DNA of 64,000 nt from an archaeon. Its GTDB lineage: Archaea; Iainarchaeota; Iainarchaeia; Iainarchaeales; JAAZKV01. The stretch lies in the NCBI GenBank assembly GCA_041659525.1, contig JBAZYC010000001.1:205731-269730 (forward strand), in the 5' to 3' direction. Under the pieces are notes generated by a model. It saw nothing but the letters and a program-made list of their open reading frames with translations. It had not been told where the DNA came from and did not search any database. A program made the translations under genes and the position numbers. This document shows, piece by piece, positions 1 to 59,826 of this stretch. Position 1 is the first letter of the stretch, and each line of letters opens with the position of its first letter.

Positions 1-3000
1 TAAACTTTTTCAATTAATTCAACAAATCCATTTAGTGACATATACCATTTAGTTTTTCCATATTTGTTTGGCACAGAAGTCATACCTAAATTAGTAAACA
101 TCCCCTTGTATGCTGGGTTATCATCAATTTCAAATAACAAACTACTTTTGTCTTTAATTTCATTACTCTTTAATACATTACTCATTGACCAAAGCGCCTT
201 ATCAGTAGGTTTTTGTATAGGCATATTATAATCTGCAGTTAATGGAGGATTTACTAACCTATAAGGATCAGCAATTAATCCTTTATCCCCATTCAAATAA
301 TAATTCAAGTCCCCATCTTTGCACAAACTTATTTTTGGCCCAAGTGCTTCTCTATATAATTTATTCAAATCATTATTCTTCATGTTTAAATCTTCTGTAG
401 AAGTAATTTGAAGATTTAATTCATTAAATCTCTTTAGTAAGAATGCTTTCAACATTTCAGCGTTACAGAATTTAGTTGTACAATCAACTGGAGTATTCCA
501 ATTTAATTTTGTTGTTTCTATTAAGTTCATTCCATATGCTGTGGTGTCTGTTCCGCATGCTTTTGCTGCTGATCCTGCTCGGATTATTGATTTAACTACT
601 TCAGTATTAACATATTGAGTACATCCTTTGTTTTGTGCTAGGAATCTATCTGAAATACTGGTTGCTTGTGCAGTTAATTGTGCATCTGTAGAATCTGTTG
701 CTACAAGAGAGCCTGCCATGAATGCTTTCAAATCAGCTATGCACTTAACTTCGCTTCCTTCAGCTACTACCAAACATTGTTCTTCAACATTTCCAGTTAT
801 TGTGTAACCTGGTTTTGTTACAAGTATTGTTAGTGGCCATACTAGTTCTTGTGAATCAAATGTAGCTGCTCTTGATACTGTTCCTTTTACTGGAACACTT
901 ATTAGCAGGCAGTCTTTTGTCATTCCGCTTCTATCTACTTCAACCATTAAATTTGATCCTCTACTATTGTTAATCAAACTTCCAGAAGAAGTTTCGCTTA
1001 CAGTGATTTTTACTCCGCCAGTCTTTGATGGATCTACTGTTGATTGTAATTTGATTCCGTCAAGTAATCCGCAGTTCTTTGTAGCACTTCCTGCTTCTGT
1101 TTGAGTTTCTGCTTTTCTACTTTGGTAATAGTACATGTCATATTGTGGATAAGCTGTACTTGTTTGTGTTGGTGCAGGACCTATTCTTAGTGCTGCTGGT
1201 TCTGCTATGTAAACATATCTTGATCCAACGTAAGCTGAGTCAGGTACTGCTCCAGTTGAGCCAGCGTTTCGAGTTATCCAATAATTTCTAATATCAAGTG
1301 AACTTAGATTTTGACAATCTTTTGGTCTTGCAGTTGGATCTCCCCAGTTAAGTGCTGAGTCAATACTCTCTCCAATTCTCCACATATCTTCAATAGTAAT
1401 TGGGAATTCCATGCATTGTCCAGAACCGTATTGGTTAGTATAAGAGATATTTAAATTTCCGTAAACGTTTGTTCGTGCATCTGTCTCTGTCCCCCATTGT
1501 CTAATGCTTCCTAGTGTTTGGAATGGTCCTGCTTGTTGTGTTCTTGAATCAAATAATTTTCTTTGAGGAATGTATTGTGCACTTGGCATTACTTCGAAAT
1601 CAACTTGTTCAATTGATCCACTATCTCCTTGGATTATTTCTCTAGTTCTTGTTCTTGTTCCTGTTATTAGTGAGCAATTACTTGATGAAGCGCATCCACT
1701 TTGTTGAGTGTATTGTGAGTAAGAACTATATTGCGAATTAATTGGATAAGAGCTTGCATATTGTGATTCCATTCCTACTTGGAAGTAAGGTACACTTGAT
1801 TGCATTCCGTAAGTTGAGTTAGGAGCAGAGCATTCTATTGTTGCCATGTTATTTCCTCTTGAAAGCATTACTCCTGTATCATAACAGTAATTGTAAGCAG
1901 TGTATTTTTGTGGCTTATAGATAAATGAATTTAGATTAATCATTGTTACATTTGTTTTAATACAATCTTTGTCAGTGTCTCCAAGTTTTCTTACTAGTAC
2001 TGATACATCTGCAACTTTTTTCTTTACCTCTTGTGAGCCACTTGCTTTTGCATTTACTTTAATAGTGTATTTTCCTAAGACATATCCTGGGCTTACTATT
2101 ATTGTTGCATCAGAGTCTTTTGAAATTGTAACTTTTTCTTCTGAAACATTTACTCTTGAATCAGGATCTAAATCAATTTCTATATCCACTGTACAAGAAT
2201 TTTTAATTGTAAAAGAATTTTGTTGGAAACTATTGTTAGCAGTTGCTCCGCTTTGTCCAATACCACTATAACCTGCCCCATATCCCATGCTTCCGTATCC
2301 ACCCATACTCATTCCAGGCATCATCATGCTACCCATTCCGTATGGAGAAGATCTATTAGAGAATCCACCGTATAAAGATAATTGTGGAGAGTAATTACTT
2401 CCCATTAGTGCGCCGTAACCCATATTCCATGGAGCCATATCTAATATTAGTCCGCCAATTGGTTTGTCTATTTCAAGACACTTTGAAAGATTGCTCATTG
2501 TTGTGCTTGTTTTTATTTGTGCTTCTACTTTTTCAACTGACTTGTCTTCAAGAATATTTTTTCCAATAATTGAAATTGTAAAGTCTTGTGCTCCGCTTGC
2601 AACTGTTCCGCTTGGAATAAATGTAACAGTTAAATCTTCTTCTGCATTCTTTTCAAGATAGTCTCCTAACTTAGCGTAACTATCAGTTAGTGTTCCATTT
2701 GATAGTCCTTTTCCTGTTATTGAAATTGTTCCAAACTTAGCCGATTCACTTAACTTTGCTTCTAAATCATTTAGTGCAATATCAGTTCCTTCGGCAGTAC
2801 AAGTATTTGTTAGTGTAACTGTTTTTGTTGCGTTTCCATTCGCAGTAATGAATTCTATTGTTGCTGGATTAACTTTTAGGCACTTTCCACTATCAATCAT
2901 TCCGGGCATTGATAATCTTACAGCAATATTTATTTCGCTAGTGAATGATTGGTTTGTTCCGCTTATTTCTGAATTAATTATTAATTTTCCAGTTAGATCT

Positions 3001-6000
3001 TTTGGTTCTTTTAGTCTCATTGCGTTGCTATTTAGTTTCATTGATAAAATATAATTTCTGTCTTTTCCTTGTTCAATTACTGTTCCGTTTATTGTTCCAT
3101 TGAATTTAATGTCAACGTAGCTCTTTACGTCCCCATTTATCTCTGCGCTAGTTATTTTTACGTTCTTTGCAGTATCATTTTGAATTATTACTGATTCTTC
3201 TAGTCCAGTTATTTCTCCAATTTTAATTGTTTCATTTATTTGTGGAGGAGTAATTGTTAGTACTGAATCATCCACTATTTTTACAAATTCTTGCGAGTCA
3301 TATCCTTCTTTCTTTGCTGTAATTGTAATTTCGTCTCCGATTCTTGGTTCAGCTAGTTCGTACATTGCTAGTCCTTCTCCAGTTGTCTCAACTGTTGAAA
3401 GCAGATCTCTTCCTGATTTAATTGAAACCATTACTCCATCAAGTGAATCGTTTCCATCAGTTGCTTCAAAGAATAAAGTGTTGTTTATGTATGGAACAAT
3501 TACTTTTGGAACCATATCAAAAGTGAATTTCTTATTTGCTTTTACATTAATTGTAACTGTTTCATCTAACTCTGATTTTGAACTAGAATTAATTGCTAAT
3601 TTAATTCCACTTGTTCCTGATGCACTTGCAGTAAATAATATTTGTATTTGTATTGGAGCATCTATTCCTACAGTTCCAAGATTAATTGTTTTTTCAGCTT
3701 GTTCCGCTCCGTTAACACTAATTGCATTAATATCAATGCTCTTTCCTTGTACGCTTAGTACTGCTCCAACTAGTGCTTTTCCACTATAGTTTGTCAAGTC
3801 TGCAGTTAGTAAGTATTGTACTCCTTTCTTTGCTTCAATTGTTCCATTAACGTATTTTGTTTTTCCTGCTTCGCTTCCATCAAGTATTTGTAGAGTATAA
3901 GATTTGCAGAATGATCCAACGCATTGATTTGTTGCTCCTGCTAGTAGTACTCTTTTCTTTGCAGTCGAGTATAATTCGTTTGTGCCTGAAGAAGTTGATT
4001 GTGGATCTTTAATTATTGATCCTCCTTTTGCCCAAGCTCTATAGAATAAATTTAGTGGAGCATTTGGATTTGTTTCAGTAACAGTTATTTCTGCTTCTAC
4101 TTCGTAAGTTCCTTCTTGTGGATTCTTCCAAACAGAATTTGCCCACTTAGCATTCCCAGTTGTTAAATTCTTTGCATCTTTATCATATCCACTTGGCGGA
4201 GTGTAAGTAGTTCCCATTGTGATTCTTCCTGAAGAATCAATTTTGCTTAAGTATAATCCGTCTTCTTCCATTAGGTTAGTTACGTTTGCTGTTTCTTTTC
4301 CTGTTCTTAAGTGTAATCCTGCTTCAGTGAAAGATCCTTTTGGTACTTGTACTATTGTTCTTACTGTGTAAGTTCCTTGTGCTACACTTGCTGCGCCACT
4401 TTCTGTTTTTGCTGATACTTCTGCATTCCCACTATATACTCCAACTAGAGTAGCAATGATTTGTGCACTTGGTCTTACTAAAATTATTCCTTTTTCAGTT
4501 CGAGCATTTGCACTAGAATAAATTGCTGATGAAAAGTATTTTGAAAATCCTGTGCTTTCTACTACAAAGTAAACTTTCTTATCTGCTCTAAGAATAAATT
4601 CTGCTACCCCATCAGAGGAAGTTAATTTTGATTGTCCTTCTTGTGTTGAAGTGAAATAATTCATTGCTTTTACGCTTACTCCACTCAAAGGATTTTTTTC
4701 TGGATCAAGTACTTTGATTGCGATTGTTCCTTCTCCAATATCAAATACTACTTCTAAAACTTTTTGTGTTCTTGGAACAATTTGTATGCTTGTTGAGTTA
4801 ACACTTCCAAATCCTTCTTTTGAAACTGTTGCCATGTAAGATTTTGTTAATTCTAAATTGAAGAATTCTGCTTCTCCGCTCGCACCAGTAGTTTTTTCTC
4901 CAATTATTGGTTCAGCTGGATCAATTTTCTTTAGTACTACTCTTGCATTATCAATTGGGTTCTTTTTTCCATCCACTACTTTTACTAAAATAGAATTGCT
5001 TGTTGATGCATCTACTTTTGTAAGTAAAACTTCTACATTGTCTCCAGCTGTGGCAGCTTTTGTTTCTCCAATTACATATTCTGGGTGATCTACTGTTACA
5101 ATATATTCTCCATTTTCTGCTACATCAAAAGTTACTTGTCCCGTAGCTCCAGTTAATTTTGTTCGTACATCATTACTATTAGTTGCAAGTGTTAGTTTTA
5201 CTTCTGCTCCTAGAATTGGATTATTATTAGCTGCGTCTCTTACTATTACTTTTGTTGTTGCTCTAACTGCTTTTTGTAAAGTTACATCAAATTGAGTAGT
5301 AGTGTCTTTTAGAACATCTTTTACTTCCCCAATTTTGCTTCCATCATAACTAGAATAATTTCCATCTGGAGAAGTTATTAAAATATAATATTTTTTTACA
5401 GGAACATTATCAAATGAAACAATTGCTGTTCCTAGTGAAATATTTTCTATTGGTGCTGTTCCGTCCATTGGAACTAATTTTACTCTTAAACCAGCAGGAA
5501 CACTAGTTGAAGATTCAGCTGTAATTGTTACATTTACTTTTCCAAATGTTTGTTCTATTTCTTCTACTGTTACTGCTCCGTTCCCCGAGAATGATGCAGT
5601 TGCGTTAACTAAATTATAATTTTGTAAACTTAGCACTTCTATTTCTTTACAAGATGGACTTACTGTTGCTTGGAATACTCCATTAGTATAATTTGCTACT
5701 GATTCTTCGTTTGCTCCTTTGCATTTGTAAATTAAACTTCCGCTTCCACTAATTAGTGAGCCATTTGCTGTTTTTAAGTAAACTGCTTTTGAAATAGTTG
5801 CATCTTCTAAGCTTAAAGTAAATTCTTCTTCAACATTACCATTTAGAGTTATCTCTCTTGTTTGAGTTGCACTATTTTCTTTATCAATTTTTATTGAATA
5901 ACTTCCATTAGGGAGTAAGAATACTACTTTTCCATCAGTGCTTGTTGTTTGATTTCCTTTTTCAACATCATTTTGGAGTACTATTACTGTAGCTCCTTCG

Positions 6001-6254
6001 ATTGCACTTTGAGTATCATCAGTAACAATTACGCTTAGAGCAGAATTTCCGCTTGAAGTTATTACTACAAAGAGTAATAATAATATTAAAATAAGAATAA
6101 CTATTGCTAAAGGGAATGTTGGAATGTTTTTTTCTTCTAAAGCATCTACTATATTTCCCACTGCAGGAACTTTTTCACTAACGCCGTCCACTAAATTGTA
6201 CCATTTGTCTTCTAAAGAGTAGTAAACATCTTTTAGTGATTCAATTGCAGCCAT
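1..6254 (-). CDS. Giant membrane-anchored surface protein, paralog A (GP-A); 5' end complete, 3' end beyond window (>=2084 codons)
   Basis: Absent from the ORF track because no stop lies in the window. ATG at 6254 (plus-strand cat 6252-6254) sits 5 nt after GGTTGGG. Hand translation: MAAIESLKDVYYSLEDKWYNLVDGVSEKVPAVGNIVDALEEKNIPTFPLAIVILILILLLLFVVITSSGNSALSVIVTDDTQSAIEGATVIVLQNDVEKGNQTTS.. This shows an EDKWY motif, one TM helix, then a CarboxypepD_reg/PEGA-like beta-sandwich unit. I hand-translated nt 3-780 in the same frame and found it open (..QCLVVAEGSEVKCIADLKAFMAG..AKACGTDTTAYGMNLIETTKLNWNTPVDCTTKFCNAEMLKAFLLKRFNEL..NPAYKGMFTNLGMTSVPNKYGKTKWYMSLNGFVELIEKV). The track lists no minus-strand ORF fragments in 1..6254, consistent with one uninterrupted frame. 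Confidence 0.85.
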   Translation of the reverse strand, partial: MAAIESLKDVYYSLEDKWYNLVDGVSEKVPAVGNIVDALEEKNIPTFPLAIVILILILLLLFVVITSSGNSALSVIVTDDTQSAIEGATVIVLQNDVEKGNQTTSTDGKVVFLLPNGSYSIKIDKENSATQTREITLNGNVEEEFTLSLEDATISKAVYLKTANGSLISGSGSLIYKCKGANEESVANYTNGVFQATVSPSCKEIEVLSLQNYNLVNATASFSGNGAVTVEEIEQTFGKVNVTITAESSTSVPAGLRVKLVPMDGTAPIENISLGTAIVSFDNVPVKKYYILITSPDGNYSSYDGSKIGEVKDVLKDTTTQFDVTLQKAVRATTKVIVRDAANNNPILGAEVKLTLATNSNDVRTKLTGATGQVTFDVAENGEYIVTVDHPEYVIGETKAATAGDNVEVLLTKVDASTSNSILVKVVDGKKNPIDNARVVLKKIDPAEPIIGEKTTGASGEAEFFNLELTKSYMATVSKEGFGSVNSTSIQIVPRTQKVLEVVFDIGEGTIAIKVLDPEKNPLSGVSVKAMNYFTSTQEGQSKLTSSDGVAEFILRADKKVYFVVESTGFSKYFSSAIYSSANARTEKGIILVRPSAQIIATLVGVYSGNAEVSAKTESGAASVAQGTYTVRTIVQVPKGSFTEAGLHLRTGKETANVTNLMEEDGLYLSKIDSSGRITMGTTYTPPSGYDKDAKNLTTGNAKWANSVWKNPQEGTYEVEAEITVTETNPNAPLNLFYRAWAKGGSIIKDPQSTSSGTNELYSTAKKRVLLAGATNQCVGSFCKSYTLQILDGSEAGKTKYVNGTIEAKKGVQYLLTADLTNYSGKALVGAVLSVQGKSIDINAISVNGAEQAEKTINLGTVGIDAPIQIQILFTASASGTSGIKLAINSSSKSELDETVTINVKANKKFTFDMVPKVIVPYINNTLFFEATDGNDSLDGVMVSIKSGRDLLSTVETTGEGLAMYELAEPRIGDEITITAKKEGYDSQEFVKIVDDSVLTITPPQINETIKIGEITGLEESVIIQNDTAKNVKITSAEINGDVKSYVDIKFNGTINGTVIEQGKDRNYILSMKLNSNAMRLKEPKDLTGKLIINSEISGTNQSFTSEINIAVRLSMPGMIDSGKCLKVNPATIEFITANGNATKTVTLTNTCTAEGTDIALNDLEAKLSESAKFGTISITGKGLSNGTLTDSYAKLGDYLEKNAEEDLTVTFIPSGTVASGAQDFTISIIGKNILEDKSVEKVEAQIKTSTTMSNLSKCLEIDKPIGGLILDMAPWNMGYGALMGSNYSPQLSLYGGFSNRSSPYGMGSMMMPGMSMGGYGSMGYGAGYSGIGQSGATANNSFQQNSFTIKNSCTVDIEIDLDPDSRVNVSEEKVTISKDSDATIIVSPGYVLGKYTIKVNAKASGSQEVKKKVADVSVLVRKLGDTDKDCIKTNVTMINLNSFIYKPQKYTAYNYCYDTGVMLSRGNNMATIECSAPNSTYGMQSSVPYFQVGMESQYASSYPINSQYSSYSQYTQQSGCASSSNCSLITGTRTRTREIIQGDSGSIEQVDFEVMPSAQYIPQRKLFDSRTQQAGPFQTLGSIRQWGTETDARTNVYGNLNISYTNQYGSGQCMEFPITIEDMWRIGESIDSALNWGDPTARPKDCQNLSSLDIRNYWITRNAGSTGAVPDSAYVGSRYVYIAEPAALRIGPAPTQTSTAYPQYDMYYYQSRKAETQTEAGSATKNCGLLDGIKLQSTVDPSKTGGVKITVSETSSGSLINNSRGSNLMVEVDRSGMTKDCLLISVPVKGTVSRAATFDSQELVWPLTILVTKPGYTITGNVEEQCLVVAEGSEVKCIADLKAFMAGSLVATDSTDAQLTAQATSISDRFLAQNKGCTQYVNTEVVKSIIRAGSAAKACGTDTTAYGMNLIETTKLNWNTPVDCTTKFCNAEMLKAFLLKRFNELNLQITSTEDLNMKNNDLNKLYREALGPKISLCKDGDLNYYLNGDKGLIADPYRLVNPPLTADYNMPIQKPTDKALWSMSNVLKSNEIKDKSSLLFEIDDNPAYKGMFTNLGMTSVPNKYGKTKWYMSLNGFVELIEKV

Positions 6255-7899: not shown

Positions 7900-7968
7900 T
7901 AAAATCAAACAAAGAAATGTATTAAGTAGTTAAAAAGAATTTGCTCTAGAAGAAATTAGTTTAAAGTT

Positions 7969-8029
7969 TTATTGCGGGCAATTAAACTTCATTTCAAACA
8001 ATTATTGTGGGCAATGTTATTGCGGGCAA
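7969..8029. promoter_or_regulatory. Three copies of near-palindromic TTATTG(C/T)GGGCAA, spanning the GP-B stop codon and the region upstream of the pilin-like gene
   Basis: Copies at 7969-7981, 8002-8014 (one C>T change) and 8017-8029. The core TTGCnnGCAA is an inverted repeat. Copy 3 encodes the last codons and stop of GP-B (..FCPQ*). Copies lie 70-130 nt upstream of the 7899 ATG on the same strand. Confidence 0.7.
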
Positions 8030-17816: not shown

Positions 17817-17949
17817 CACCAGAATAGAGGTTTATTGATATTAAATAACTTTCTTTTAGATTTGTCAAAAGAAATAACTTTTTCTTTCGTATAATTTGAC
17901 AGCCCTCAAGTTTTTATATCTCTTTCACTCTTTACAATTACGTGAAAGC

Positions 17950-35232: not shown

Positions 35233-35237
35233 TATAC

Positions 35238-41282: not shown

Positions 41283-41300
41283 CACCCTTAAAACTATAAA

Positions 41301-43080: not shown

Positions 43081-43137
43081 AATTACTGCATGCGCAATTC
43101 AATTTATAAATAAAACGGAACTGCACTCCAGTACTAA

Positions 43138-53292: not shown

Positions 53293-56200
53293 CTAACAAC
53301 TATTAATTCCGCTTGAATCTATTTCTGCTTGTATTTTCTCTAAGTAATCTGGGTTCCACCACACTGTTAATTTGTTAGCAGAGTTTTGAGACATACACAT
53401 TTGTTTGTTCGAAATTCTGTCAAAAATTCCTTTTAGGGTAGTATAATCTTGTATTCCCTGGTCATCAAAGTACTTAAGTATTAATTTTACATTTTGTATT
53501 GAGGTTAGTGAAGGAACTTTTTTAGAAGTATTTAGTTTAACTGAATTTAATTGAGTTGTTTCAACCATTGTTATTCCTGATGATTTAACTGGGGGGTTAA
53601 AGAAAGTGGTTACAAGTTCTAAAGTTCCTTTCTTTTGTCCGTTAGGCCAACTTATTACTCTTTTTCCATTTATCTGTTGGTCAGTAAAGAATACTTTTTT
53701 GTTTCCTTCAAAGTCTAAGCAACCATTCTTTAAAATTGTAGAAGAAAGTAGAGTCCATTTCTTTTGCATTGTAGCAGGTACCCCAAATCCACTCATTAAA
53801 TATTCTGCATTAACTGCTCCGCCATTACTAGTAATTGTCATAAGAACAGGAGTAGGTTGTGAAGGATAGAAATTCATTTGTTTGGTATTATTATCGTAAG
53901 CAAGAACTATTTGCTTATCTAGTTCTGATAAAGAATTTGTAGTTAATAAATTAATATTTGTAAGAGGATTTCCTTGGTAAGTGGTGATTGTTGGACCGTC
54001 TTGGTATAATTGTAAACTTTGATTTTGATTTACACTCGCCCCATAACCATCTCTAATCAAGGTCCCACCATTTTTTCCAACCTCTCCATCGAAAGGAGTT
54101 TCATAAAATGGATTGTAATCTTTTGCTTCGTTTACAAGTCCAACTGTCACAGTGACATTCGCGTTTGGAGTATTATCATCAAGTAATCTATTAACATTTT
54201 CATTTATATAATTCAAATCAATTTCTACTCTATATAGTCCACCCTTTGAAAGATTAGATCGGTTTTCTACAACTCCATCTGTTTTTATTTTGAAATTCAG
54301 CATATTTTGCGAGATAAATTGATCGTACCCTTTAGAGTTTTCAGTTGAATTAAAAATTATTCCAGTGAATGGAACTGATGAATAGTAAGTATCAAAGTCA
54401 CTAAGGAATGCAGAATTATAATTATCTTTTACTAAGTAAGCATAGAACCCAGTTAGTTTAGGAATTTCTGCCTCTTTATTTCCGCCCAAAATTTTCAAAT
54501 CATTTATTTTTGCAAGTCTCTTAAACAAACTTAATGTGAATTGAGTAGCATCACAGTAGGTATAATTAGGGTTTAGTGAATCACATTGATCATAAGTAAT
54601 AATTGAAGGGCTCCAATTAAACAATAATCTTGGAACAAATTCAGGTCCAGTAAATCCTGGAGTTCCGTCAGTTGAGTAACAATTTGTAGGGTTTCCAATT
54701 AACTTTACTTGGAAAATCTTTTCTTGTTTTTCAGTATTATTAATCCAATCTTTAACTGTAATTATTGCGTATTGTTCGCCTAACAAATTAACTCTTGTAA
54801 TTACTACATTGATATCAGGACTAGCTACAGTTGGTTTTCCAATGTATTCAGCGTAAACGTGTCCGTTTTTCAAAAACATTCTTGTTTCATCAGGAATATT
54901 ACTTAATTCATATTTTATTCTTCCAGAAGCATCATATTCTATTAGAGAACTATTTTCATCCCATCTTGATGCAAACATTTTTGGATTTCCTTCGTTTGCA
55001 TCAGGGTTAATATAAAGTTCTGGTGCAACAAATCCTATTCCTTGTATCCCTAGTGTTTCTACTCCCCCAGGCAGCCCTGCAATTTCATCTTCTCTCATCC
55101 ATTGGGGAGTAGGAGAGGCTTCGTATCTTCCAAGATCATAAACTTTTCCCTCTACAGGAATAAGGTTAACATCTTTTTCCCAAACTTTGTTTTGTATTTT
55201 TGCGTAAGAAATATTTCTATACATTTCTGGTTGTAGGGTAATTGATGAAGTCGCACAGCATCTGAACCAATTAAATATCTTGCAACTCTTCTTCCATCCT
55301 TTTGTGTGCACAATGAAATCTATTCCGCTTTCACTAGGCGTAATTCCTTCTAAGTCAGCATTTCTGTTTGATGAAATTATTTCTACTTTTCCAAGCCCTT
55401 GTTCATCTACTCCAGCTACACAATAATCAGGATTTTGCGAATCAACACAAACATTAAATTCAGGAGGGATCGGTGCAGTAATAACTGGAAGAGTATAAGC
55501 TTTGTCATAACAATGTTGAACTGTTGCTTCAGCTATCCCGAAGAATTCCCCATATCCATAAGAGCCACATGAGTTTGAAACCTCTTCAAGTTCTGAACAA
55601 ATATTTACGTTTGTGTTTTCATCAGTTGATGATTCCCAATCAGTACCAATTGGTAAATTTTCATCAATAGTAGATAAACTTCCATCAGCATTATGCAAAA
55701 CCCAATTTCGATCATAATAAGTTCCATCAGAATTATAACAAAATCCAGTACTAGAATTATAATTCATATCAATAGCTTCGCAATCAGTAATATAATTTGC
55801 ATCGGAAGAAACTACTCCTGGTTCTTCTGCAAAGTGGATTATTGTTTCTTTTTGCACTGCTTCAAGTCCTGCACCAGTAGTTGCCTGTGCTCCCCAGGAA
55901 ATGTTATCTCCATTTATTTCTGAAACAATTTTGTTTTGAATTGCAATTGGGAGTGAGTAAAAAGGGATTGCGGGATTTGTTGTATCTAAATCAGGTTCTG
56001 GTTTTTCAGTTGCATCTGTGTCTGTTAAATTATCAATTATTGAATTACAAATATCTGTTGCCTCATCAGAAAAATAAAGATCATCTCTTTCGCTTATCGC
56101 TCCAGTTGAACAAGAAGGACATTTGCTTCTTTGAGATATTTTCATCCCCCAACCATAACAGTATACTATTGCTTCTATTGCTGAACCCACTACTTTTGGC

Positions 56201-59200
56201 CGTAGGTTTATTACTTCAGGAGTACCTGGTTTGTTATAAGAAAGAGAAACAGTATTTGTCCCAATATCCAATTGAGGGTAATAATTATCTTTTCTTCCAC
56301 TGAACGCATTATTTTTTATAATTGCATTTATTTGTTCAGTGCTTCTAAAATCAAATATGTATTGCGAGAATTCAAATGGATTAGTAGGGTCAGTTACTAT
56401 TGCATCAAAGAACCAATTCTGTCTTACTGAACTTGTAGAAAGTGCTTCTATTTTTACAGGGTAAGCTCCAAGCATTCCCCCTCTTGTTTGAACTGTATTA
56501 TGAGCAAGTAAAGGGATTGTTTTTGTTTCCCCTTGCTTAATTACAAATCTCAAATACGGGGAAGCATCTAAATCAGTTAAAACCCCTACTAAAATATCCT
56601 CTCCAGAACAATAATTATTATCAGTAGAATATTCTACTTCAAAATATTTGTTCGTTGCATTAACATCTATATTTATTACTGGATTAATAGTGCCAAAAAT
56701 ATCGACTCCATTAATTTTTACTTTTAAGCAAGGGGGGATTTCTGAAGCCTGTTCAGGGAACGGATCTGAAACAATTATTTCCAAGTGTGCAGGATTAGAA
56801 TTATTTTCATCAGTTGCTTCAAAAATTAATTTTGTTCCAGCAGGAATATTAGAAGCATCAAAGCTTACTATATCTACCCCATTTCCATCAGTGGTTCCGC
56901 TTTGAAATGCCATCGCATCCCCTTCTTTTTTCACTGACCAATTAGCTTTAACCCCAGTTCTTGAAATCATTGTTTTTACTAAAAACATTGGGTAAACCGC
57001 ATTTTGATAAATAGTGTTCTGTACACTTGTCGCCATAATAAGAATATTCAAGTCACTCTTGTTTCGAACATCAATTCTAACAAAATCTGTTCTTCCAGGA
57101 TAATCAGCTAACGCATCATTTAATCCGCTTTTTTTCTCAACTCTTTCAAATATTTTTGCCCCTACTGCTGCTTTGATTAAACTTAGAGGAAATTCTTTTA
57201 CTCCGCTATTAGCTATTGGATTAAGTATAATTTGTTGTGAAGTTAGATTCGCATCAGCCCCATTTACTTTGAATAATATTGGAGCATCCGTTCCACTCTT
57301 TTCAAGTGAAAGTGCAAGAGTTGCCTCTCCAACTGCTTTATCAGTGTTATTTGCTACAATGGTCTTTAGAGTATAACTATCCCCTATTTGTACTTTAGTT
57401 ACATTTTGTCCAGCTACTAATTCTATTGGATTAACTCCATTAGCAGGAGCTACTCCGGTTTTTGTCCAAATTAAATAATTAGAAAACAAAAATGAAGGAC
57501 AATCATCCCCTAAGCAAAATGTTTGTCCAATAGTAAACTCTTTTGAGTTCTTCAGAACTGGTTGTAAATTATTAAAACTAGGTTCAAAATAAATCCCCGC
57601 TAACCCTTTAGCATTAATGTCAACAGCTATTTCCAAAATAATTGGAATTACTTTAGGGCCGGTTTGATTAGCAATAATCACATTTGCTTGTTTAGCATTT
57701 TCTACCTCTTCATCTACGTCAATTGAAAAGTTTTTGTTTGTAGCAGATTTTTTTACTAGTGCTCCATCTACAGAGTAAGCTTTTGTAATTGTAATAGGAG
57801 TATTATTATCTAGAGTGTTTTTGTCTTTTGGACCTACATAAAAGTTTGCAGTAGCATCCCCAGCCCCACTATTATTTAAAATTAAATCAAATGCAAAATA
57901 ATATTTACTCCCAGCAATTAATTTTCGGGATTCATTTTCAGTTGCAATTAATGGGTTTGTATCATAAACCTGTCTTAGGATTAATTGAACATTATTATCA
58001 TTTGGAAGAGAGGATTGCGAATATAAGAAAACATTTTTTTCTTGAGTAGTTCTTTTTACCGTGTAAACTGGAGTTTCATAAGACAAATAATTTTCATCAT
58101 TAATAATTATTTTTACTTCATTCCCAGCTTTGAGTTTTGTTAATTGTTTAGTAATGTATTTTCCATTAATTGCTCTTACCGCTTCTATTCCATCAAAGCT
58201 TCCTGAAGAATTTTTCAAGTAAAGCATTCCGGCAGGATTTACTTTTCCCACACTATCAAAAAAGTTGAAAGTAATTGTCCCTCTTCCTGTTACTAAAACT
58301 AATGTTACGTTTTTGTCCGAGCTACCAACTGAAATTCCAGTTAATGTTCCTTCATCAGTATCTGTTTTTGCAGTTAACGAATAAGTTCCACTGGGAACTC
58401 CATAGTAAGTAGTTATTCCATTTCCATCAGTAGGAAGAGCTTTGTCAAAATATCCTTTGAATGAATTATTGTACAAAGTTGTAGAAATATTTTTTTGAAT
58501 AACGTTTTGATCATCAACAACTTTTACAATTAATTTTACTCCTCCTTGAGTCATTTGAACTATTTGCGGCCCTTCACTCATTGTTTTTAGCGTAATTGGA
58601 ACTATTTGTGTTTTGTAACCATTTGATTTTATTATAGCAGTAAAAGTTTTTCCATTAATATCAATCATTGGAATTGGACCCATTGTCCCATCCATTTTTC
58701 CAGTTAAGGGAAAAAGATAATTAGTATCATTTCCTTTTGTAAAAAATATATTTGCATTAGCAAGTATTACAGGAGAATTTTTATCCATTAATTTTAGATA
58801 AACATTTTTTGTTGTGTCTAAATTTATTTGTCGATTTACATCTGCAGTTAATCCTTCAAAATAAATATTTACATCTCTTGTTTGTTTACCCATTACTTCA
58901 AAAGTTCCGTTCGCAGATAGTCCTTTTACCATTGCTGAGTAAGAATAAGTTCCTTCAGTAAGTTCTCTTGTTATTCCCCCACTAGAAAGAGTAATTAGTG
59001 TTTCACTTCTATCAAAATCATCTGTTATTGTTATTACAGCTCCAACTTGCGGACCTATCGGACTATTAGCAGTAATTATTACGGTCCCTTTTACTAAACT
59101 GCTTTCAAGCACAATTGTTTTAGTTGTTTCTTCTCTTCCAAGCGTAATTGTATTCTCAATATAATCTTGTGCAGTTGCTTTTAGTTGAACACTTGTACAA

Positions 59201-59826
59201 GAAGATAATACACTAAAAGAAAATCCCGCGTTTGGTTGAGTATTGTTTGATTGAAGTGTTTTTACTTGTTGTTTGTTTGAATCATTCCCATTAACACAGA
59301 TATATTCTAATTTCGCGGTTGAAATAATTTGCCCAATTTCGTTTTGTACTCTCACTTGGACATTTTTTTGAGGAACAGGCATTGCAGTTAAACTAACTTT
59401 TTGTGCTTTTTCTTCTGTAAAATCAATTATCTTTGAGAACTGCATATAATTTTCTTTATCAATTGTCACTTCAACTAATTCAGAACAAGAAACAAACTTG
59501 GCTTTTCCTTCTGCGTTTGTGGTAACACTTAGTTCTTGGTCATCCCCTTTGGCACAAGTAACAATTAAATTTACTATTGCTCCATCAACTGGATTCTTAC
59601 TTGGACTTAACACAGTTAATTCAACATCATATTGCGGATTAACTCCTAAAAAGGTAAATCCTAGAACCGCTATTAGTAATACTAATAGTAATACTAAGAA
59701 AAGAGCAAAACTTGGAACTACTTCATCAATTTTGTCAGTAATTTTTAGGATTGGAACAAAATTATTTACCCATTCAAGTGAATCATACCACTTATCTTCA
59801 AGAGTAGAATATAGCCCCACAACCAA
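53293..59826 (-). CDS. Giant membrane-anchored surface protein, paralog C (GP-C), ~2175-2177 aa
   Basis: The start is TTG 59826 or GTG 59820; there is no ATG. The N-terminus MVVGLYSTLEDKWYDSLEWVNNFVPILKITDKIDEVVPSFALFLVLLLVLLIAVLGF has the EDKWY motif plus a TM helix. An array of beta-sandwich units follows (NPVDGAIVNLIV..NAEGKAKF; PQVGAVITITDD..). Distal blocks: LLFNWSPSIITYDQCDSLNPNYTYCDATQFTLSLFKRL, YNPFYETPFDGEVGKNGG and the C-terminal QMCMSQNSANKLTVWWNPDY. Confidence 0.9.
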   Translation of the reverse strand: MVVGLYSTLEDKWYDSLEWVNNFVPILKITDKIDEVVPSFALFLVLLLVLLIAVLGFTFLGVNPQYDVELTVLSPSKNPVDGAIVNLIVTCAKGDDQELSVTTNAEGKAKFVSCSELVEVTIDKENYMQFSKIIDFTEEKAQKVSLTAMPVPQKNVQVRVQNEIGQIISTAKLEYICVNGNDSNKQQVKTLQSNNTQPNAGFSFSVLSSCTSVQLKATAQDYIENTITLGREETTKTIVLESSLVKGTVIITANSPIGPQVGAVITITDDFDRSETLITLSSGGITRELTEGTYSYSAMVKGLSANGTFEVMGKQTRDVNIYFEGLTADVNRQINLDTTKNVYLKLMDKNSPVILANANIFFTKGNDTNYLFPLTGKMDGTMGPIPMIDINGKTFTAIIKSNGYKTQIVPITLKTMSEGPQIVQMTQGGVKLIVKVVDDQNVIQKNISTTLYNNSFKGYFDKALPTDGNGITTYYGVPSGTYSLTAKTDTDEGTLTGISVGSSDKNVTLVLVTGRGTITFNFFDSVGKVNPAGMLYLKNSSGSFDGIEAVRAINGKYITKQLTKLKAGNEVKIIINDENYLSYETPVYTVKRTTQEKNVFLYSQSSLPNDNNVQLILRQVYDTNPLIATENESRKLIAGSKYYFAFDLILNNSGAGDATANFYVGPKDKNTLDNNTPITITKAYSVDGALVKKSATNKNFSIDVDEEVENAKQANVIIANQTGPKVIPIILEIAVDINAKGLAGIYFEPSFNNLQPVLKNSKEFTIGQTFCLGDDCPSFLFSNYLIWTKTGVAPANGVNPIELVAGQNVTKVQIGDSYTLKTIVANNTDKAVGEATLALSLEKSGTDAPILFKVNGADANLTSQQIILNPIANSGVKEFPLSLIKAAVGAKIFERVEKKSGLNDALADYPGRTDFVRIDVRNKSDLNILIMATSVQNTIYQNAVYPMFLVKTMISRTGVKANWSVKKEGDAMAFQSGTTDGNGVDIVSFDASNIPAGTKLIFEATDENNSNPAHLEIIVSDPFPEQASEIPPCLKVKINGVDIFGTINPVINIDVNATNKYFEVEYSTDNNYCSGEDILVGVLTDLDASPYLRFVIKQGETKTIPLLAHNTVQTRGGMLGAYPVKIEALSTSSVRQNWFFDAIVTDPTNPFEFSQYIFDFRSTEQINAIIKNNAFSGRKDNYYPQLDIGTNTVSLSYNKPGTPEVINLRPKVVGSAIEAIVYCYGWGMKISQRSKCPSCSTGAISERDDLYFSDEATDICNSIIDNLTDTDATEKPEPDLDTTNPAIPFYSLPIAIQNKIVSEINGDNISWGAQATTGAGLEAVQKETIIHFAEEPGVVSSDANYITDCEAIDMNYNSSTGFCYNSDGTYYDRNWVLHNADGSLSTIDENLPIGTDWESSTDENTNVNICSELEEVSNSCGSYGYGEFFGIAEATVQHCYDKAYTLPVITAPIPPEFNVCVDSQNPDYCVAGVDEQGLGKVEIISSNRNADLEGITPSESGIDFIVHTKGWKKSCKIFNWFRCCATSSITLQPEMYRNISYAKIQNKVWEKDVNLIPVEGKVYDLGRYEASPTPQWMREDEIAGLPGGVETLGIQGIGFVAPELYINPDANEGNPKMFASRWDENSSLIEYDASGRIKYELSNIPDETRMFLKNGHVYAEYIGKPTVASPDINVVITRVNLLGEQYAIITVKDWINNTEKQEKIFQVKLIGNPTNCYSTDGTPGFTGPEFVPRLLFNWSPSIITYDQCDSLNPNYTYCDATQFTLSLFKRLAKINDLKILGGNKEAEIPKLTGFYAYLVKDNYNSAFLSDFDTYYSSVPFTGIIFNSTENSKGYDQFISQNMLNFKIKTDGVVENRSNLSKGGLYRVEIDLNYINENVNRLLDDNTPNANVTVTVGLVNEAKDYNPFYETPFDGEVGKNGGTLIRDGYGASVNQNQSLQLYQDGPTITTYQGNPLTNINLLTTNSLSELDKQIVLAYDNNTKQMNFYPSQPTPVLMTITSNGGAVNAEYLMSGFGVPATMQKKWTLLSSTILKNGCLDFEGNKKVFFTDQQINGKRVISWPNGQKKGTLELVTTFFNPPVKSSGITMVETTQLNSVKLNTSKKVPSLTSIQNVKLILKYFDDQGIQDYTTLKGIFDRISNKQMCMSQNSANKLTVWWNPDYLEKIQAEIDSSGINSC

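What the first reader, a model, noticed from the sequence alone, without database searches (positions are those of the whole stretch)
1..59826. Four paralogous giant (1750 to 2980 aa) membrane-anchored beta-sandwich-array proteins occupy ~42% of the window
Seen directly, point (i): the N-termini align. GP-A is MAAIESLKDVYYSLEDKWYNLVDGVSEKVPAVGNIVDALEEKNIPTFPLAIVILIL. GP-B is ..ISEKLAGIYTKAEDKYFDTLDFLDGKGLPVYKYSDFFENKGIPSFVVTIAIIVLL. GP-C is MVVGLYSTLEDKWYDSLEWVNNFVPILKITDKIDEVVPSFALFLVLLLVLL. The shared pattern is Y-[ST]-x-x-E-D-K-[WY]-[YF], then [IV]-P-[ST]-F and a single TM helix. GP-D has an acidic/aromatic N-tail plus a TM helix. Point (ii): each protein continues with many CarboxypepD_reg/PEGA-type units. 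Point (iii): the distal blocks are collinear. The first block reads A KLNWNTPVDCTTKFCNAEMLKAFLLKRF / B NCGEAYCDAVQAAKYLDKIIRQI / C LLFNWSPS..YTYCDATQFTLSLFKRL / D LSWDWNS..EEPYLDATQMSILISKKI. The second reads C YNPFYETPFDGEVGKNGG / D YSPWFYTPIDGSVGTKYAG. The C-terminal block reads C QMCMSQNSANKLTVWWNPDY / D SICVSSLGNRELIWWPEDT. I recognise no catalytic or characterised adhesin domain in the conserved distal region. Inference: this is a lineage-specific family of type II (N-in) anchored giant surface proteins. Investing ~27 kb of 64 kb in it within a presumably small genome suggests a central role in cell envelope or host contact.
Basis: partly seen in the sequence, partly recalled or inferred. 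Interest (0 to 1): 0.85.

Follow-up and report, generated by a model that had tools for sequence, protein, structure and literature searches.

The report
Giant anchored surface proteins of Iainarchaeia
Four very large genes in this small-genome DPANN archaeon encode related stalk-and-head surface proteins held in the membrane by a highly conserved N-terminal anchor; the family is widespread in related uncultured archaea, is in no domain database, and sits in a conserved locus with a mini-archaeosortase and a pilin-like gene, but its function is still unknown.

Summary
The four giant ORFs are real: GP-A 3..6254, GP-B 8017..16959, GP-D 46039..51291 and GP-C 53293..59826, all on the minus strand. 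Together they make up 42% of the window.

They are related, but as a mosaic. A, B and C share a roughly 45-aa N-terminal motif (EDK[WY][YF]...P[ST]F), one TM helix, and about 500-1200 aa of beta-sandwich stalk. C and D clearly share a 500-700 aa C-terminal "head" module. GP-A, whose full length is 2464 aa, has a divergent copy of that head. GP-B shows only motif-level traces of it. GP-D lacks both the N-motif and detectable CarboxypepD_reg units.

Each paralogue has its own orthologues in Iainarchaeia/Diapherotrites MAGs, and gene order is conserved. The head-module profile finds 890 representative proteins in a library of 1.84 billion, almost always at the C-terminus of 2000-3250 aa proteins. 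It matches no Pfam or NCBIfam family and no PDB or BFVD fold.

Three points are new relative to the finding. GP-B is always preceded by a mini exosortase/archaeosortase-family gene. It is followed by a prepilin-like gene and lies beside a FlaI-type ATPase. A related genome carries at least two further giant paralogues.

Best reading: N-in anchored stalk-and-head surface fibrils. This is a new variant of the known class of giant DPANN surface proteins. What the head binds, and what the proteins do, is unresolved.

The parts
1..6254 (-). GP-A, N-terminal 2084 aa of a 2464-aa protein (P0026). The stop codon lies beyond the window start.
   Evidence: P0026 is 100% identical and comes from a 985,290-bp contig.
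6057..6254 (-). GP-A N-terminal motif (YYSLEDKWY...NIPTF) plus a single TM helix (residues 47-65).
   Evidence: for the TM helix; for the motif (HMM E 2e-28).
4464..6044 (-). GP-A array of CarboxypepD_reg-like beta-sandwich units (residues 71-597). One further unit lies at residues 931-1004.
   Evidence: PF13620 scores 93 bits against a cut-off of 32; six units detected.
3..656 (-). Start of GP-A's divergent head module (residues ~1867-2084; the rest lies outside the window). Contains the TKFCNAEMLKAFLLKRF block.
   Evidence: hhalign against the head profile gives E 1.5e-6 and probability 90%. The C-terminal block is conserved across the GP-A clade.
6445..7908 (-). 487-aa prepilin-like protein between GP-B and GP-A. 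Its N-terminus reads ...ERG|FNMFSAIVATILIM..., a class III signal-like motif.
   Evidence: [KR]-G-F-[NT]-[ML]-F is invariant in 12 orthologues. Its position after GP-B is conserved. It has no Pfam or NCBIfam hit.
8017..16959 (-). GP-B, 2980-aa ORF. The database protein P0056 starts 7 codons later, at 16938, and is 2973 aa.
   Evidence: About 36 orthologues of 2725-3092 aa.
16744..16938 (-). GP-B N-terminal motif (IYTKAEDKYF...GIPSF) plus the TM helix. This is the most conserved 50 aa of the whole protein.
   Evidence: E 8e-32; mean column identity 0.85 here, against 0.2-0.7 elsewhere.
15397..16725 (-). GP-B array of CarboxypepD_reg-like units (residues 72-514). One further unit lies at residues 932-1015.
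12261..13221 (-). GP-B residues ~1240-1560: three tandem Ig-like (PapD/ASH-like) beta-sandwich domains.
   Evidence: AF2 model with pLDDT 77. Foldseek PDB hits at E 1e-9 to 1e-6 to Hydin, the CEP192 SPD-2 domain, PapD/FimC and RbmA.
11659..12261 (-). GP-B residues ~1560-1760: a possible remnant of the first half of the head module. Motifs in order: YCDAVQ followed by a long helix, then LYLQND, then GCGYY.
   Evidence: Motifs and secondary-structure order are collinear with GP-D. The profile-profile comparison is not significant (E 0.1).
17148..17816 (-). 222-aa multi-TM protein of the exosortase/archaeosortase family ("mini-archaeosortase"), directly upstream of GP-B on the same strand.
   Evidence: TIGR04178 scores 42.1 bits against a cut-off of 23. 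Cys, Arg and His motifs are invariant in 20 orthologues. Synteny is shown.
17896..20253 (+). 785-aa FlaI/PilB/TadA-type secretion ATPase, transcribed divergently from the sortase-giant operon.
   Evidence: PF00437 E 2e-19. FlaI model E 1.6e-45, which is below the equivalog cut-off. Its position is conserved.
46039..51291 (-). GP-D, 1750 aa: an acidic/aromatic N-tail, a TM helix (residues 30-48), the mid module, a helical Ala/Ser/Thr-rich region and the head module.
   Evidence: A 47%-identical orthologue occupies the same position after GP-C.
49072..50814 (-). GP-D mid module (residues ~160-740). It is homologous to residues ~1100-1650 of the 2300-2650 aa relatives.
   Evidence: local jackhmmer domain E-values of 1e-77 to 1e-123.
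46042..48174 (-). GP-D head (distal) module, residues 1040-1750.
   Evidence: AF2 model with pLDDT 71 and pTM 0.66. No fold match.
51424..53196 (-). 590-aa Cys-rich protein (46 Cys) with a signal-like N-terminus and a C-terminal TM helix plus Lys tail, lying between GP-C and GP-D. It is a neighbour of the family, not a member.
   Evidence: It is absent from the orthologous position in L030.
53293..59826 (-). GP-C, 2177 aa.
   Evidence: Orthologues P0001-P0014.
59641..59826 (-). GP-C N-terminal motif (LYSTLEDKWY...VVPSF) plus the TM helix.
   Evidence: E 2e-22.
58009..59628 (-). GP-C array of six CarboxypepD_reg-like units (residues 67-606).
   Evidence: The Pfam hit itself is below the cut-off (26 bits against 32).
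53296..54798 (-). GP-C head (distal) module, residues 1677-2177.

Best explanation
The four genes encode members of one mosaic family of giant cell-surface "stalk-and-head" proteins of Iainarchaeia (Diapherotrites, DPANN).

Proposed mechanism, with the basis for each step:
1. A ~45-residue N-terminal tail stays in the cytoplasm. Its pattern is ...YY.LEDK[WY][YF]..[LV]D....[IV]P.[YF]....D...K.[IV]P[ST]F. The motif is shown; its cytoplasmic location is inferred.
2. A single hydrophobic helix acts as an uncleaved or late-cleaved signal-anchor and holds the protein in the membrane. The helix is shown; the N-in orientation has only weak support.
3. A stalk of a thousand or more residues projects the C-terminal part away from the cell. 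It is built of divergent tandem beta-sandwich domains: prealbumin/CarboxypepD_reg-like, macroglobulin-like and PapD/ASH-like Ig. The domain types are shown for A, B and C.
4. A 500-700 aa alpha/beta head sits at the tip. It carries conserved Cys pairs and invariant Asp, Arg, Tyr and Gln positions, and would bind a ligand such as a host-cell or substrate surface, or a partner paralogue. The module is shown; binding is inferred.

The paralogues differ in stalk length and in head type. GP-D has lost the beta-sandwich stalk and the N-motif. GP-B carries a different, poorly conserved C-terminal extension. The set would therefore present heads at different heights.

The genes belong to a conserved surface-biogenesis locus: mini-archaeosortase -> GP-B -> prepilin-like protein -> GP-A, with further giants in relatives, beside a FlaI-type ATPase. 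The N-tail is the best-conserved part of the proteins, so it probably docks onto a conserved cytoplasmic or membrane partner that targets or positions these very long chains. In that respect it would be functionally comparable to the extended signal regions of giant bacterial surface proteins. This last point is inference by analogy.
For: - **Family and mosaic relationships.**
- **One TM helix per protein, none at the C-terminus.**
- **N-motif.** Of the 237 relatives in hand, 169 have a complete N-motif. In 166 of those 169, P-[ST]-[FL] directly precedes the helix. The N-terminal 50 aa are the most conserved segment of GP-B.
- **Positive-inside bias.** 1.6 against 0.64 K+R over 176 relatives.
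- **Beta-sandwich arrays.** PF13620 is above its cut-off in A and B. Six units are detected in each of A, B and C. Relatives carry only beta-sandwich Pfam families: SpaA, SdrD_B, Big_1, bMG3, MG4, PEGA and Ig_DR_A0283. Three PapD/ASH-like Ig domains are modelled in GP-B.
- **Head module.** 890 representative proteins at E<=1e-3 and 562 at E<=1e-30. In the 150 best, which are the ones listed, the match is nearly always at the extreme C-terminus of 2000-3250 aa proteins. Invariant and near-invariant Cys are listed.
- **No enzyme signature anywhere.**
- **Orthologues of A, B, C and D are kept separately in many genomes.** In at least 11 cases the A and B hits report the same longest-contig length. 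Gene order is shared.
- **The arrays are old.** No DNA-level tandem repeats occur inside the genes. Base composition is uniform across the window.
Against: - No experimental or expression data exist for any member.
- Topology rests on a modest charge bias and on domain types, not on a dedicated predictor.
- Whether the anchor is cleaved is unknown. The GP-A clade has small residues after the helix, whereas GP-B has Pro at +1.
- The head has no detectable similarity to any binding domain. "Ligand binding" is therefore an argument from architecture only, and three invariant Asp plus one Arg could equally mark a catalytic or metal site.
- The GP-B and GP-D stalks are only partly beta-sandwich.
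- One-to-one orthologues with conserved synteny fit a housekeeping envelope role at least as well as host-specific adhesion.
- N-glycosylation sequons are not enriched beyond what the composition predicts.
Confidence: 0.6

Rival explanations
1. The giants are the S-layer or main envelope lattice of these archaea. The paralogues would co-assemble through their head modules into a canopy, held at a fixed distance from the membrane by the N-anchored stalks. This would be analogous to the SlaA/SlaB or tetrabrachion arrangement. Their main role would then be structural, not adhesion.
For: - Each paralogue has its own orthologue, in conserved order, across Iainarchaeia. That pattern fits core envelope components.
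- No recognised S-layer protein was seen in the window.
- The paralogues differ in stalk length.
- The locus includes a sortase-family enzyme, which in haloarchaea matures the S-layer glycoprotein. That last point is established knowledge; see the abstracts of PMC7157517 listed.
Against: - There is no match to any S-layer family in Pfam or NCBIfam.
- There is no C-terminal anchor or PGF-CTERM signal.
- Only 64 kb of a ~985-kb genome was examined, so a conventional S-layer gene may lie elsewhere.
- Nothing here indicates lattice contacts.
- Proteins of 2000-3000 aa in six or more paralogues would be an unusual S-layer.
Confidence: 0.2
2. The conserved N-terminal element (EDKWY...P[ST]F followed by a hydrophobic helix) is a dedicated sorting signal, and the mini-archaeosortase encoded immediately upstream recognises or processes it. 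The giants would then be cleaved and re-anchored, or released, by a transpeptidation-type reaction. This would be the first exosortase-family substrate signal that is not C-terminal.
For: - A sortase-family gene with invariant Cys, Arg and His motifs lies directly upstream of GP-B in 20 of the 29 genome loci.
- In 25 of the 29 metagenome loci that have more than 700 nt of downstream sequence, the sortase is followed on the same strand by an N-motif ORF. In 19 of them the ORF starts within 1.5 kb.
- P-[ST]-F directly abutting the helix occurs in 166 of 169 relatives. It resembles the PGF/PEF-plus-helix layout of archaeosortase signals; this resemblance comes from my own knowledge of those signals and is a lead, not a test.
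- The giants have no other recognisable sorting signal.
Against: - Every described exosortase or archaeosortase signal is a C-terminal tripartite domain (abstract of 10.1101/2023.06.07.544157). The giants have no C-terminal helix.
- With an N-in topology the P[ST]F motif lies at the cytoplasmic face. The sortase Cys sits at the start of TM2, after a Cys-containing loop that follows a Lys-rich N-tail, which places it near the outer face. This is inferred from the sequence.
- The window holds conventional candidate substrates with a C-terminal helix plus Lys tail, at 24320..28963 and 51424..53196.
- All the loci come from one lineage, in which the sortases are at least 43% identical. The synteny may therefore be inherited rather than functional.
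Confidence: 0.1
3. The giants are accessory or tip components of a type IV pilus-like apparatus. This surface filament or secretion device would be built from the prepilin-like 487-aa protein and powered by the adjacent FlaI-type ATPase. It would be broadly comparable to the secretion-channel role proposed for nanohaloarchaeal giant proteins.
For: - The arrangement ATPase <-> sortase, GP-B, prepilin-like protein, GP-A is conserved.
- The class III signal-like motif is invariant in orthologues of the 487-aa protein.
- In nanohaloarchaeal giants, an adjacent secretion ATPase has been used to argue for a secretion role (PMC10266531).
Against: - No PilC/FlaJ-type platform protein or prepilin peptidase was found in the window.
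- The giants have their own membrane anchors and no class III signal.
- They have no ATPase domain, unlike the SPEARE-type proteins.
- The ATPase is transcribed divergently and may simply be a neighbour.
Confidence: 0.1

Closest known systems
Giant surface proteins of other DPANN archaea (the nanohaloarchaeal "SPEARE" proteins, e.g. SVXNc_0300; PMC10266531)
   Same: Both are very large membrane-anchored extracellular proteins in ~1-Mb DPANN genomes. Both are built largely of Ig-like tandem domains and are presumed to mediate contact with other cells.
   Different: - The nanohaloarchaeal proteins are single genes of 8,880-9,409 aa with a VirB4/TraG-like ATPase domain.
- Here there are four to six or more paralogues of 1750-2980 aa with no ATPase or other enzyme domain.
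- The family here has its own N-terminal motif and its own C-terminal head module.
- No sequence relationship between the two groups was seen.
Bacterial fibrillar adhesins: a stalk of tandem beta-sandwich repeats with a distal adhesive domain (e.g. the SdrD, SpaA, SiiE or Embp type)
   Same: The stalk-and-head logic is the same, and so are the stalk domain types: prealbumin-like, SdrD_B, SpaA and Big_1 hits in A and in relatives. The size range is similar, and several paralogues occur per genome.
   Different: - The anchor here is an N-terminal helix with a conserved cytoplasmic tail. It is not LPXTG, a T1SS retention module or an autotransporter.
- The repeats are old and divergent, with no DNA-level tandem repeats.
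- The head is an unknown fold.
- The proteins are archaeal.
Archaeosortase/exosortase systems with PGF-CTERM-type substrates
   Same: An exosortase/archaeosortase-family gene with conserved Cys, Arg and His is encoded next to large surface proteins. A Pro-x-Phe motif abuts a TM helix.
   Different: The motif-plus-helix is at the N-terminus, not the C-terminus. The giants have no basic C-terminal tail and no C-terminal helix. The enzyme is a short ~220-aa form that is below the cut-off of every named subfamily.
Extended signal regions of giant bacterial secreted proteins (ESPR of autotransporters/TpsA; YSIRK signal peptides)
   Same: In both cases a conserved extra segment lies N-terminal to the hydrophobic core of the export signal and is found specifically on very large surface proteins. 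This comparison is an analogy from established knowledge and was not tested here.
   Different: There is no sequence similarity: Pfam and NCBIfam give no hit at the N-terminus. The system here is archaeal, and it is not known whether the helix is cleaved.
NOMO/pM5-type proteins and other CarboxypepD_reg (PF13620) array proteins
   Same: Both have tandem CarboxypepD_reg/prealbumin-like domains attached to a single membrane helix.
   Different: The array accounts for only ~500 aa of each protein here. The rest of the stalk, the head and the N-motif are unrelated to these proteins, and GP-D has no such domain.

Membership tests
CarboxypepD_reg domain proteins (Pfam PF13620) | At least one match above the Pfam gathering score (32.3 bits). 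| tested here: met
   - GP-A scores 93.2 bits and GP-B 37.0 bits, so the criterion is met for both.
- GP-C scores 26 bits, below the cut-off.
- GP-D has no match.
- A family-specific HMM finds six units in each of A, B and C and none in D.
- The label describes only ~20% of each protein.
The giant-protein family itself (as defined here) | N-terminal motif E-D-[KR]-[WY]-[YF] ... P-[ST]-F immediately followed by a single TM helix. | tested here: met
   - GP-A, GP-B and GP-C match the HMM at E 2e-28, 8e-32 and 2e-22.
- GP-D does not match (E 0.5).
- 169 of 237 relatives carry the complete motif.
The giant-protein family itself (as defined here) | C-terminal head module with these motifs in order: WDW, YCDATQ, YLIKDNYS.DF, G.Y, PFDG.VG...R..YG, PS.ATPV, C.DF.G, C.S...WWNP, and a terminal Cys. 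| tested here: met
   - GP-C and GP-D are unambiguous.
- GP-A is divergent: hhalign E 1.5e-6, with the first and last blocks aligned confidently.
- GP-B is inconclusive: E 0.1, with three motifs only.
Archaeosortase/exosortase substrates (PGF-CTERM, PEF-CTERM, PEP-CTERM and similar) | A C-terminal tripartite signal: a short motif, a TM helix and a basic tail. | tested here: not met
   None of the four giants has a C-terminal hydrophobic helix. Two other window proteins do have one, at 24320..28963 and 51424..53196.
Archaeosortase/exosortase substrates | Genomic association with an exosortase/archaeosortase-family gene. | tested here: met
   The gene at 17148..17816 matches TIGR04178 at 42.1 bits against a cut-off of 23. 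It lies directly upstream of GP-B here, in 20 genome loci, and in most metagenome loci.
Type IV pilin-like proteins (class III signal peptide) | A short basic N-terminus, then [KR]-[GA] before a ~20-residue hydrophobic stretch at the extreme N-terminus. | tested here: not met
   The giants have a ~45-aa acidic/aromatic tail and no [KR]-G cleavage motif. The neighbouring 487-aa protein at 6445..7908 does show it, as RG|FNMFSAIVA, invariant in orthologues. That is a motif-level observation only, with no Pfam or NCBIfam support.
Known S-layer protein families | A match to an S-layer family model in Pfam or NCBIfam, or an archaeal S-layer anchoring signal. | tested here: not met
   There is no such hit at E<=0.01 in Pfam or E<=0.1 in NCBIfam, and no PGF-CTERM. 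Lattice formation itself cannot be tested with these tools.
SPEARE-type nanohaloarchaeal giant proteins | A single protein of more than 5000 aa with Ig-like arrays plus a VirB4/TraG-like ATPase domain (as re-analysed in PMC10266531). | tested here: not met
   No ATPase, protease or nuclease domain is present in any of the four. Sizes are 1750-2980 aa.
Bacterial fibrillar adhesins | A stalk of tandem repeat domains together with a recognised adhesive domain and a cell-wall or outer-membrane anchor. | tested here: inconclusive
   A stalk is present. No recognised adhesive domain was found, and the anchor is of a different kind. The proteins work like fibrillar adhesins by architecture, but membership cannot be claimed.

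The most novel reading that the evidence does not exclude
The ultra-conserved N-terminal element (EDKWY...P[ST]F plus helix) and the mini-archaeosortase that always precedes GP-B form a new protein-sorting pair. This would be the first exosortase-family system acting on a signal that is not C-terminal. Together with the prepilin-like protein and the FlaI-type ATPase, it would assemble a previously undescribed DPANN surface organelle made of six or more giant stalk-and-head proteins whose head is a new fold.
Probability: 0.1. Interest if true: 0.85.

Novelty: new variant of a known kind. Interest (0 to 1): 0.55.

Why it matters
Giant surface proteins are the main candidates for how ultra-small DPANN archaea attach to, and live off, other cells. 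Only the nanohaloarchaeal ones have been examined in any detail.

This family gives a second, unrelated case with several useful properties:
- It is present as separately conserved paralogues across Iainarchaeia. The four genes take up about 3% of the ~1-Mb source contig, and a related genome carries at least six.
- It contains two sequence elements that no database describes: a cytoplasmic N-terminal tail that is the best-conserved part of the protein, and a 500-700 aa head with no known fold.
- It sits in a fixed genomic partnership with an exosortase-family enzyme.

It therefore offers concrete markers for finding the cell-surface machinery in metagenomes. It also offers defined targets (head module, N-tail, mini-sortase) for structural and proteomic work on enrichment cultures.

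If the function turns out to be ordinary adhesion or envelope building, the result is a useful annotation rather than a surprise.

Tried and rejected
1. **Direct all-vs-all BLASTP of the four proteins** gave only three weak or moderate hits. This was not enough to show paralogy, so I moved to orthologue profiles.
2. **Local jackhmmer from the GP-D head** never recruited the GP-A clade or GP-B. Only hhalign linked GP-A. GP-B stayed non-significant.
3. **GP-B C-terminal extension (residues 2090-2973) against the GP-D helical region (480-1045)** showed no similarity (E 0.5).
4. **PDB sequence-profile search with the head module** found nothing (best E 0.45).
5. **Foldseek of the head model** against PDB and BFVD gave only sub-threshold jelly-roll, PA14, CBM and C1q-like hits (best E 0.2 and 0.008, TM below 0.1). 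I rejected these as evidence.
6. **Pfam scan of 18 head modules, and NCBIfam scan of the four giants,** found nothing relevant.
7. **N-glycosylation sequon enrichment as a test of surface exposure** showed no enrichment beyond composition, so it is uninformative.
8. **DNA tandem repeats inside the genes:** none. Recent repeat expansion is rejected.
9. **Mobile-element or viral origin:** rejected. The giants are syntenic with FttA, a proteasome subunit, Tyw1 and PAP2 in related genomes, and composition is uniform. The integrase at 41839..43080 lies between the two clusters, not within them.
10. **Literature searches** for this family in Diapherotrites/Iainarchaeia or DPANN found no description of it.
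11. **Looking up the full GP-A contig** failed because P0026 is not on record in the contig index. A relative, P0030, was used instead.

Full report
**Names.** GP-A is window 3..6254, GP-B 8017..16959, GP-C 53293..59826 and GP-D 46039..51291. All four are on the minus strand.

**1. The observation**

Six-frame ORF listing shows four giant minus-strand ORFs. Three are complete, at 2980, 1750 and 2177 aa. A fourth runs off the window start with 2084 aa visible. Together they cover 26,982 nt, or 42% of the window.

A hydropathy scan finds exactly one strong transmembrane helix per protein, at residues ~30-65, and none at the C-terminus. GC content is uniform at 31-35%. There are no DNA-level tandem repeats inside the genes.

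**2. Are they paralogues?**

Direct BLASTP is weak. Only three pairs give a hit:
- A-C, N-termini: E 5e-4.
- A-B, residues ~640-740: E 5e-5.
- C-D, last 450 aa: E 6.5e-11.

Database searches settled the question. Each of GP-A, GP-B and GP-C has its own set of full-length orthologues in uncultured archaeal MAGs:
- GP-C: P0001-P0014.
- GP-A: P0026-P0052, including the complete 2464-aa protein P0026 on a 985,290-bp contig.
- GP-B: P0056-P0093.

More distant relatives of 2200-2800 aa bridge the clades. P0022, for example, matches collinearly to GP-A 7-1274, GP-B 6-791, GP-D 209-500 and 1047-1721, and GP-C 1724-2171.

Profile-profile comparison of the orthologue alignments gives B-A E 1.8e-35, A-C 4e-29 and B-C 1.5e-15. 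With a stricter alignment setting, the confidently aligned parts are the first ~1190 residues (A-B), ~1000 (A-C) and ~500 (B-C).

The relationship is real but mosaic. A, B and C share the N-terminal anchor and stalk. C and D share the C-terminal module.

**3. N-terminal element**

An alignment of ~95 N-termini shows a striking pattern...L-K-x-x-Y-Y-x-x-E-D-K-[WY]-[YF]-x-x-[LV]-D ... [IV]-P-[VI]-[YF] ... D ... K-x-[IV]-P-[ST]-F, followed at once by the hydrophobic helix.

- An HMM of this element hits only GP-A, GP-B and GP-C in a six-frame scan of the window. GP-D does not match.
- Of the 237 relatives in hand, 169 have the complete element. In 166 of those, P-[ST]-[FL] abuts the helix.
- In GP-B orthologues, the first 50 residues are the most conserved stretch of the whole 2973-aa protein: mean column identity 0.85, against 0.2-0.7 elsewhere.
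- Neither Pfam nor NCBIfam has a model for it.
- K+R counts in the 15 residues flanking the helix are 1.6 on the N side and 0.64 on the C side, averaged over 176 relatives. This is modest support for an N-in orientation.

**4. Stalk**

Pfam sees CarboxypepD_reg above its cut-off in GP-A and GP-B, below it in GP-C, and not at all in GP-D. A family-specific iterated HMM finds six units in each of A, B and C. These lie mostly within residues ~70-600, with one more near residue 930-1015 in A and B. It finds none in GP-D.

Precomputed Pfam lists for relatives contain only beta-sandwich families: SpaA, SdrD_B, Big_1, bMG3, MG4, PEGA and Ig_DR_A0283.

An AlphaFold2 model of GP-B residues 1240-1950 (pLDDT 77) shows three more tandem beta-sandwiches. 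Foldseek matches them to PapD/ASH-type Ig domains such as Hydin, the CEP192 SPD-2 domain, FimC/PapD and RbmA, at E 1e-9 to 1e-6.

GP-D is different. Its residues 160-740 correspond to a "mid module" found at positions ~1100-1650 of the 2300-2650 aa relatives. Its residues ~520-960 are Ala/Ser/Thr/Gln-rich and look helical. GP-D therefore looks like a family member that has lost the N-motif and the ~1000-aa beta-sandwich stalk.

**5. Head (distal) module**

A local profile started from GP-D 1040-1750 recruits GP-C and all bridging relatives with very low E-values. Its conserved motifs, in order, are:
- WDW
- YCDATQ
- YLIKDNYS.DF
- G.Y
- PFDG.VG...R..YG
- PS.ATPV
- C.DF.G
- C.S...WWNP
- a Cys within the last few residues.

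The GP-A clade is not recruited by HMM iteration. Profile-profile alignment does give E 1.5e-6 (90% probability) over 501 columns. That C-terminal block is conserved throughout the GP-A clade.

GP-B is not significantly similar (E 0.1). It does have YCDAVQ followed by a long helix, then LYLQND, then GCGYY, in the same order and with a similar order of secondary-structure elements to GP-D. This may be a remnant of the first half of the module. GP-B lacks the C-terminal block and instead carries a poorly conserved ~900-aa extension.

An exhaustive profile search of 1.84 billion representative proteins finds 890 with E<=1e-3 and 562 with E<=1e-30. In the 150 best hits, which are the ones listed, the match is nearly always at the extreme C-terminus of 2000-3250 aa proteins.

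The module matches nothing known:
- No Pfam family in any of 18 diverse copies.
- No PDB sequence.
- The AF2 model (pLDDT 71, pTM 0.66) has no significant Foldseek match in PDB or BFVD.

**6. Who has it**

The window is archaeal. It encodes FttA/aCPSF1, a proteasome subunit and Tyw1. All named relatives are Candidatus Iainarchaeum/ainarchaeum, Diapherotrites, "archaeon", or in one case Micrarchaeota MAGs.

In at least 11 cases the A and B orthologues report the same longest-contig length. GP-C and GP-D are adjacent in a 203-kb contig, with the same flanking Tyw1 and PAP2 genes as here.

In that same genome, the GP-A orthologue is followed by a 154-aa membrane protein. A 2986-aa giant comes next, with the N-motif and the head module, and then a 2560-aa giant with the N-motif. 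"Four" is therefore a lower bound, and the window edge probably cuts a larger cluster.

**7. The locus**

This was not in the finding.

Directly upstream of GP-B lies a 222-aa multi-pass membrane protein at 17148..17816. It passes the exosortase/archaeosortase signature model TIGR04178 (42 bits against a cut-off of 23). It keeps invariant WLC.G..E, FN..R and E..HD.LF motifs in 20 orthologues.

Between GP-B and GP-A lies a 487-aa protein whose N-terminus, [KR]-G-F-[NT]-[ML]-F-[ST]-A plus a hydrophobic stretch, is invariant in orthologues and looks like a class III (prepilin) signal. A 785-aa FlaI/PilB/TadA-type ATPase is transcribed divergently.

The order ATPase <-> sortase -> GP-B -> prepilin-like -> GP-A recurs in the 29 genome loci wherever the contig is long enough. 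In an independent metagenome scan seeded with the sortase, 29 loci had more than 700 nt of downstream sequence. In 25 of those, a same-strand ORF with the N-motif follows the sortase, and in 19 it starts within 1.5 kb.

Two other proteins in the window have a C-terminal helix plus Lys tail and are conventional candidate sortase substrates:
- 24320..28963, a 1547-aa GLUG/parallel-beta-helix protein.
- 51424..53196, a 590-aa protein with 46 Cys.

**8. Interpretation**

The best-supported reading (about 0.6) is a family of N-in anchored stalk-and-head surface proteins. The parts are a conserved cytoplasmic tail, one helix, a long stalk of divergent beta-sandwich domains and a Cys-stabilised head of unknown fold at the tip. 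Paralogues present different heads at different heights.

The architecture, the anchor and the family relationships are shown. The orientation is weakly supported. Ligand binding by the head, and docking of the N-tail to a conserved partner, are inferred.

Rivals:
- **A true S-layer or envelope lattice (0.2).** Separately conserved orthologues and synteny favour it. No family match or lattice evidence supports it.
- **The N-motif as a non-C-terminal sortase signal (0.1).** Tight synteny and the P[ST]F-helix layout favour it. Against it, every known exosortase-family signal is C-terminal. In addition, the motif would sit at the inner membrane face while the sortase Cys sits at the outer one.
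- **An accessory of a type IV pilus-like device (0.1).**

**9. Comparison with what is known**

Giant surface proteins are known in DPANN. The nanohaloarchaeal SPEARE-type proteins are 8,880-9,409 aa, with Ig-like arrays and a VirB4/TraG-like ATPase domain (PMC10266531).

The present family is unrelated in sequence, smaller and multi-paralogous. It has no enzyme domain, and it carries its own N-terminal and C-terminal elements.

Architecturally it works like a bacterial fibrillar adhesin, but it fails or cannot be tested on that class's defining anchor and adhesive domain. It fails the test for archaeosortase substrates (no C-terminal signal), for pilins, for known S-layer families and for SPEARE proteins.

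Public records label these proteins only "carboxypeptidase regulatory-like domain-containing protein" or "hypothetical". Literature searches found no description of the family.

**10. Verdict**

The finding is a new variant of a known kind. It contains two uncatalogued sequence modules and an unexpected, strongly conserved partnership with a mini-archaeosortase.

Interest is moderate (0.55). It would rise sharply if the sortase link or a new surface organelle were demonstrated.

Noticed in passing
window 17148..17816 (-): A 222-aa exosortase/archaeosortase-family membrane protein lies directly upstream of GP-B. It matches TIGR04178 above the cut-off but is below the cut-off of every named subfamily (XrtX, XrtH, ArtD and others). 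Cys, Arg and His motifs are invariant in 20 orthologues, and its position is conserved in more than 40 loci.
   Followed up: yes
window 6445..7908 (-): A 487-aa protein lies between GP-B and GP-A. Its N-terminus has an invariant [KR]-G-F-[NT]-[ML]-F-[ST]-A motif plus a hydrophobic stretch, which looks like a class III/prepilin signal. It has no Pfam or NCBIfam family, and its position after GP-B orthologues is conserved.
   Followed up: partly
window 17896..20253 (+): A 785-aa FlaI/PilB/TadA-type ATPase with a ~300-aa N-terminal extension is transcribed divergently from the sortase-giant operon. It is 64-87% identical in related loci, which is much better conserved than the giants. No PilC/FlaJ-type partner was seen in the window.
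   Followed up: partly
L074:17407-27275 (related 203-kb contig): Downstream of the GP-A orthologue lie a 154-aa multi-TM protein, a 2986-aa giant (N-motif plus head module) and the start of a 2560-aa giant (N-motif). The cluster therefore holds at least six giants in that genome, and the window probably cuts a larger cluster at its start.
   Followed up: partly
window 24320..28963 (-): A 1547-aa protein has an N-terminal signal-like helix, GLUG and parallel-beta-helix repeats, 52 Cys, and a C-terminal TM helix followed by KKKK. It is a conventional candidate for a sortase substrate or a C-terminally anchored surface protein.
   Followed up: no
window 51424..53196 (-): A 590-aa protein with 46 Cys shows repeated segments of the C..G..A..Y.....FG.DTFC type. 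It has a signal-like N-terminus and a C-terminal TM helix plus Lys tail. It sits between GP-C and GP-D here but is absent from that position in the related genome (L030).
   Followed up: partly
window ~32000..43100: A run of minus-strand ORFs without any family match (33044..34192, 34348..35244, 35241..36134, 36271..37806) ends near a tyrosine integrase at 41839..43080. The stretch separating the two giant clusters is ~29 kb here, against ~16 kb in the related genome. This may be an integrated element.
   Followed up: no
window 61340..61426 (-): ARAGORN calls an 87-nt tRNA-Asp with anticodon "atc". The unusual anticodon and length suggest an intron-containing archaeal tRNA that has been mis-parsed.
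   Followed up: no
window 28951..30713 (+): Two adjacent, overlapping NTP_transferase-family ORFs (317 and 278 aa) lie next to the GLUG protein. They may be sugar-nucleotide synthesis genes for surface glycosylation.
   Followed up: no
head module; C-termini of GP-C (53296..) and GP-D (46042..), and relatives: A Cys within the last 1-7 residues is nearly invariant and co-occurs with the invariant Cys of the C.S...WWNP block. This suggests a disulfide that pins the C-terminal tail. The GP-A clade keeps the first Cys but not the terminal one.
   Followed up: partly
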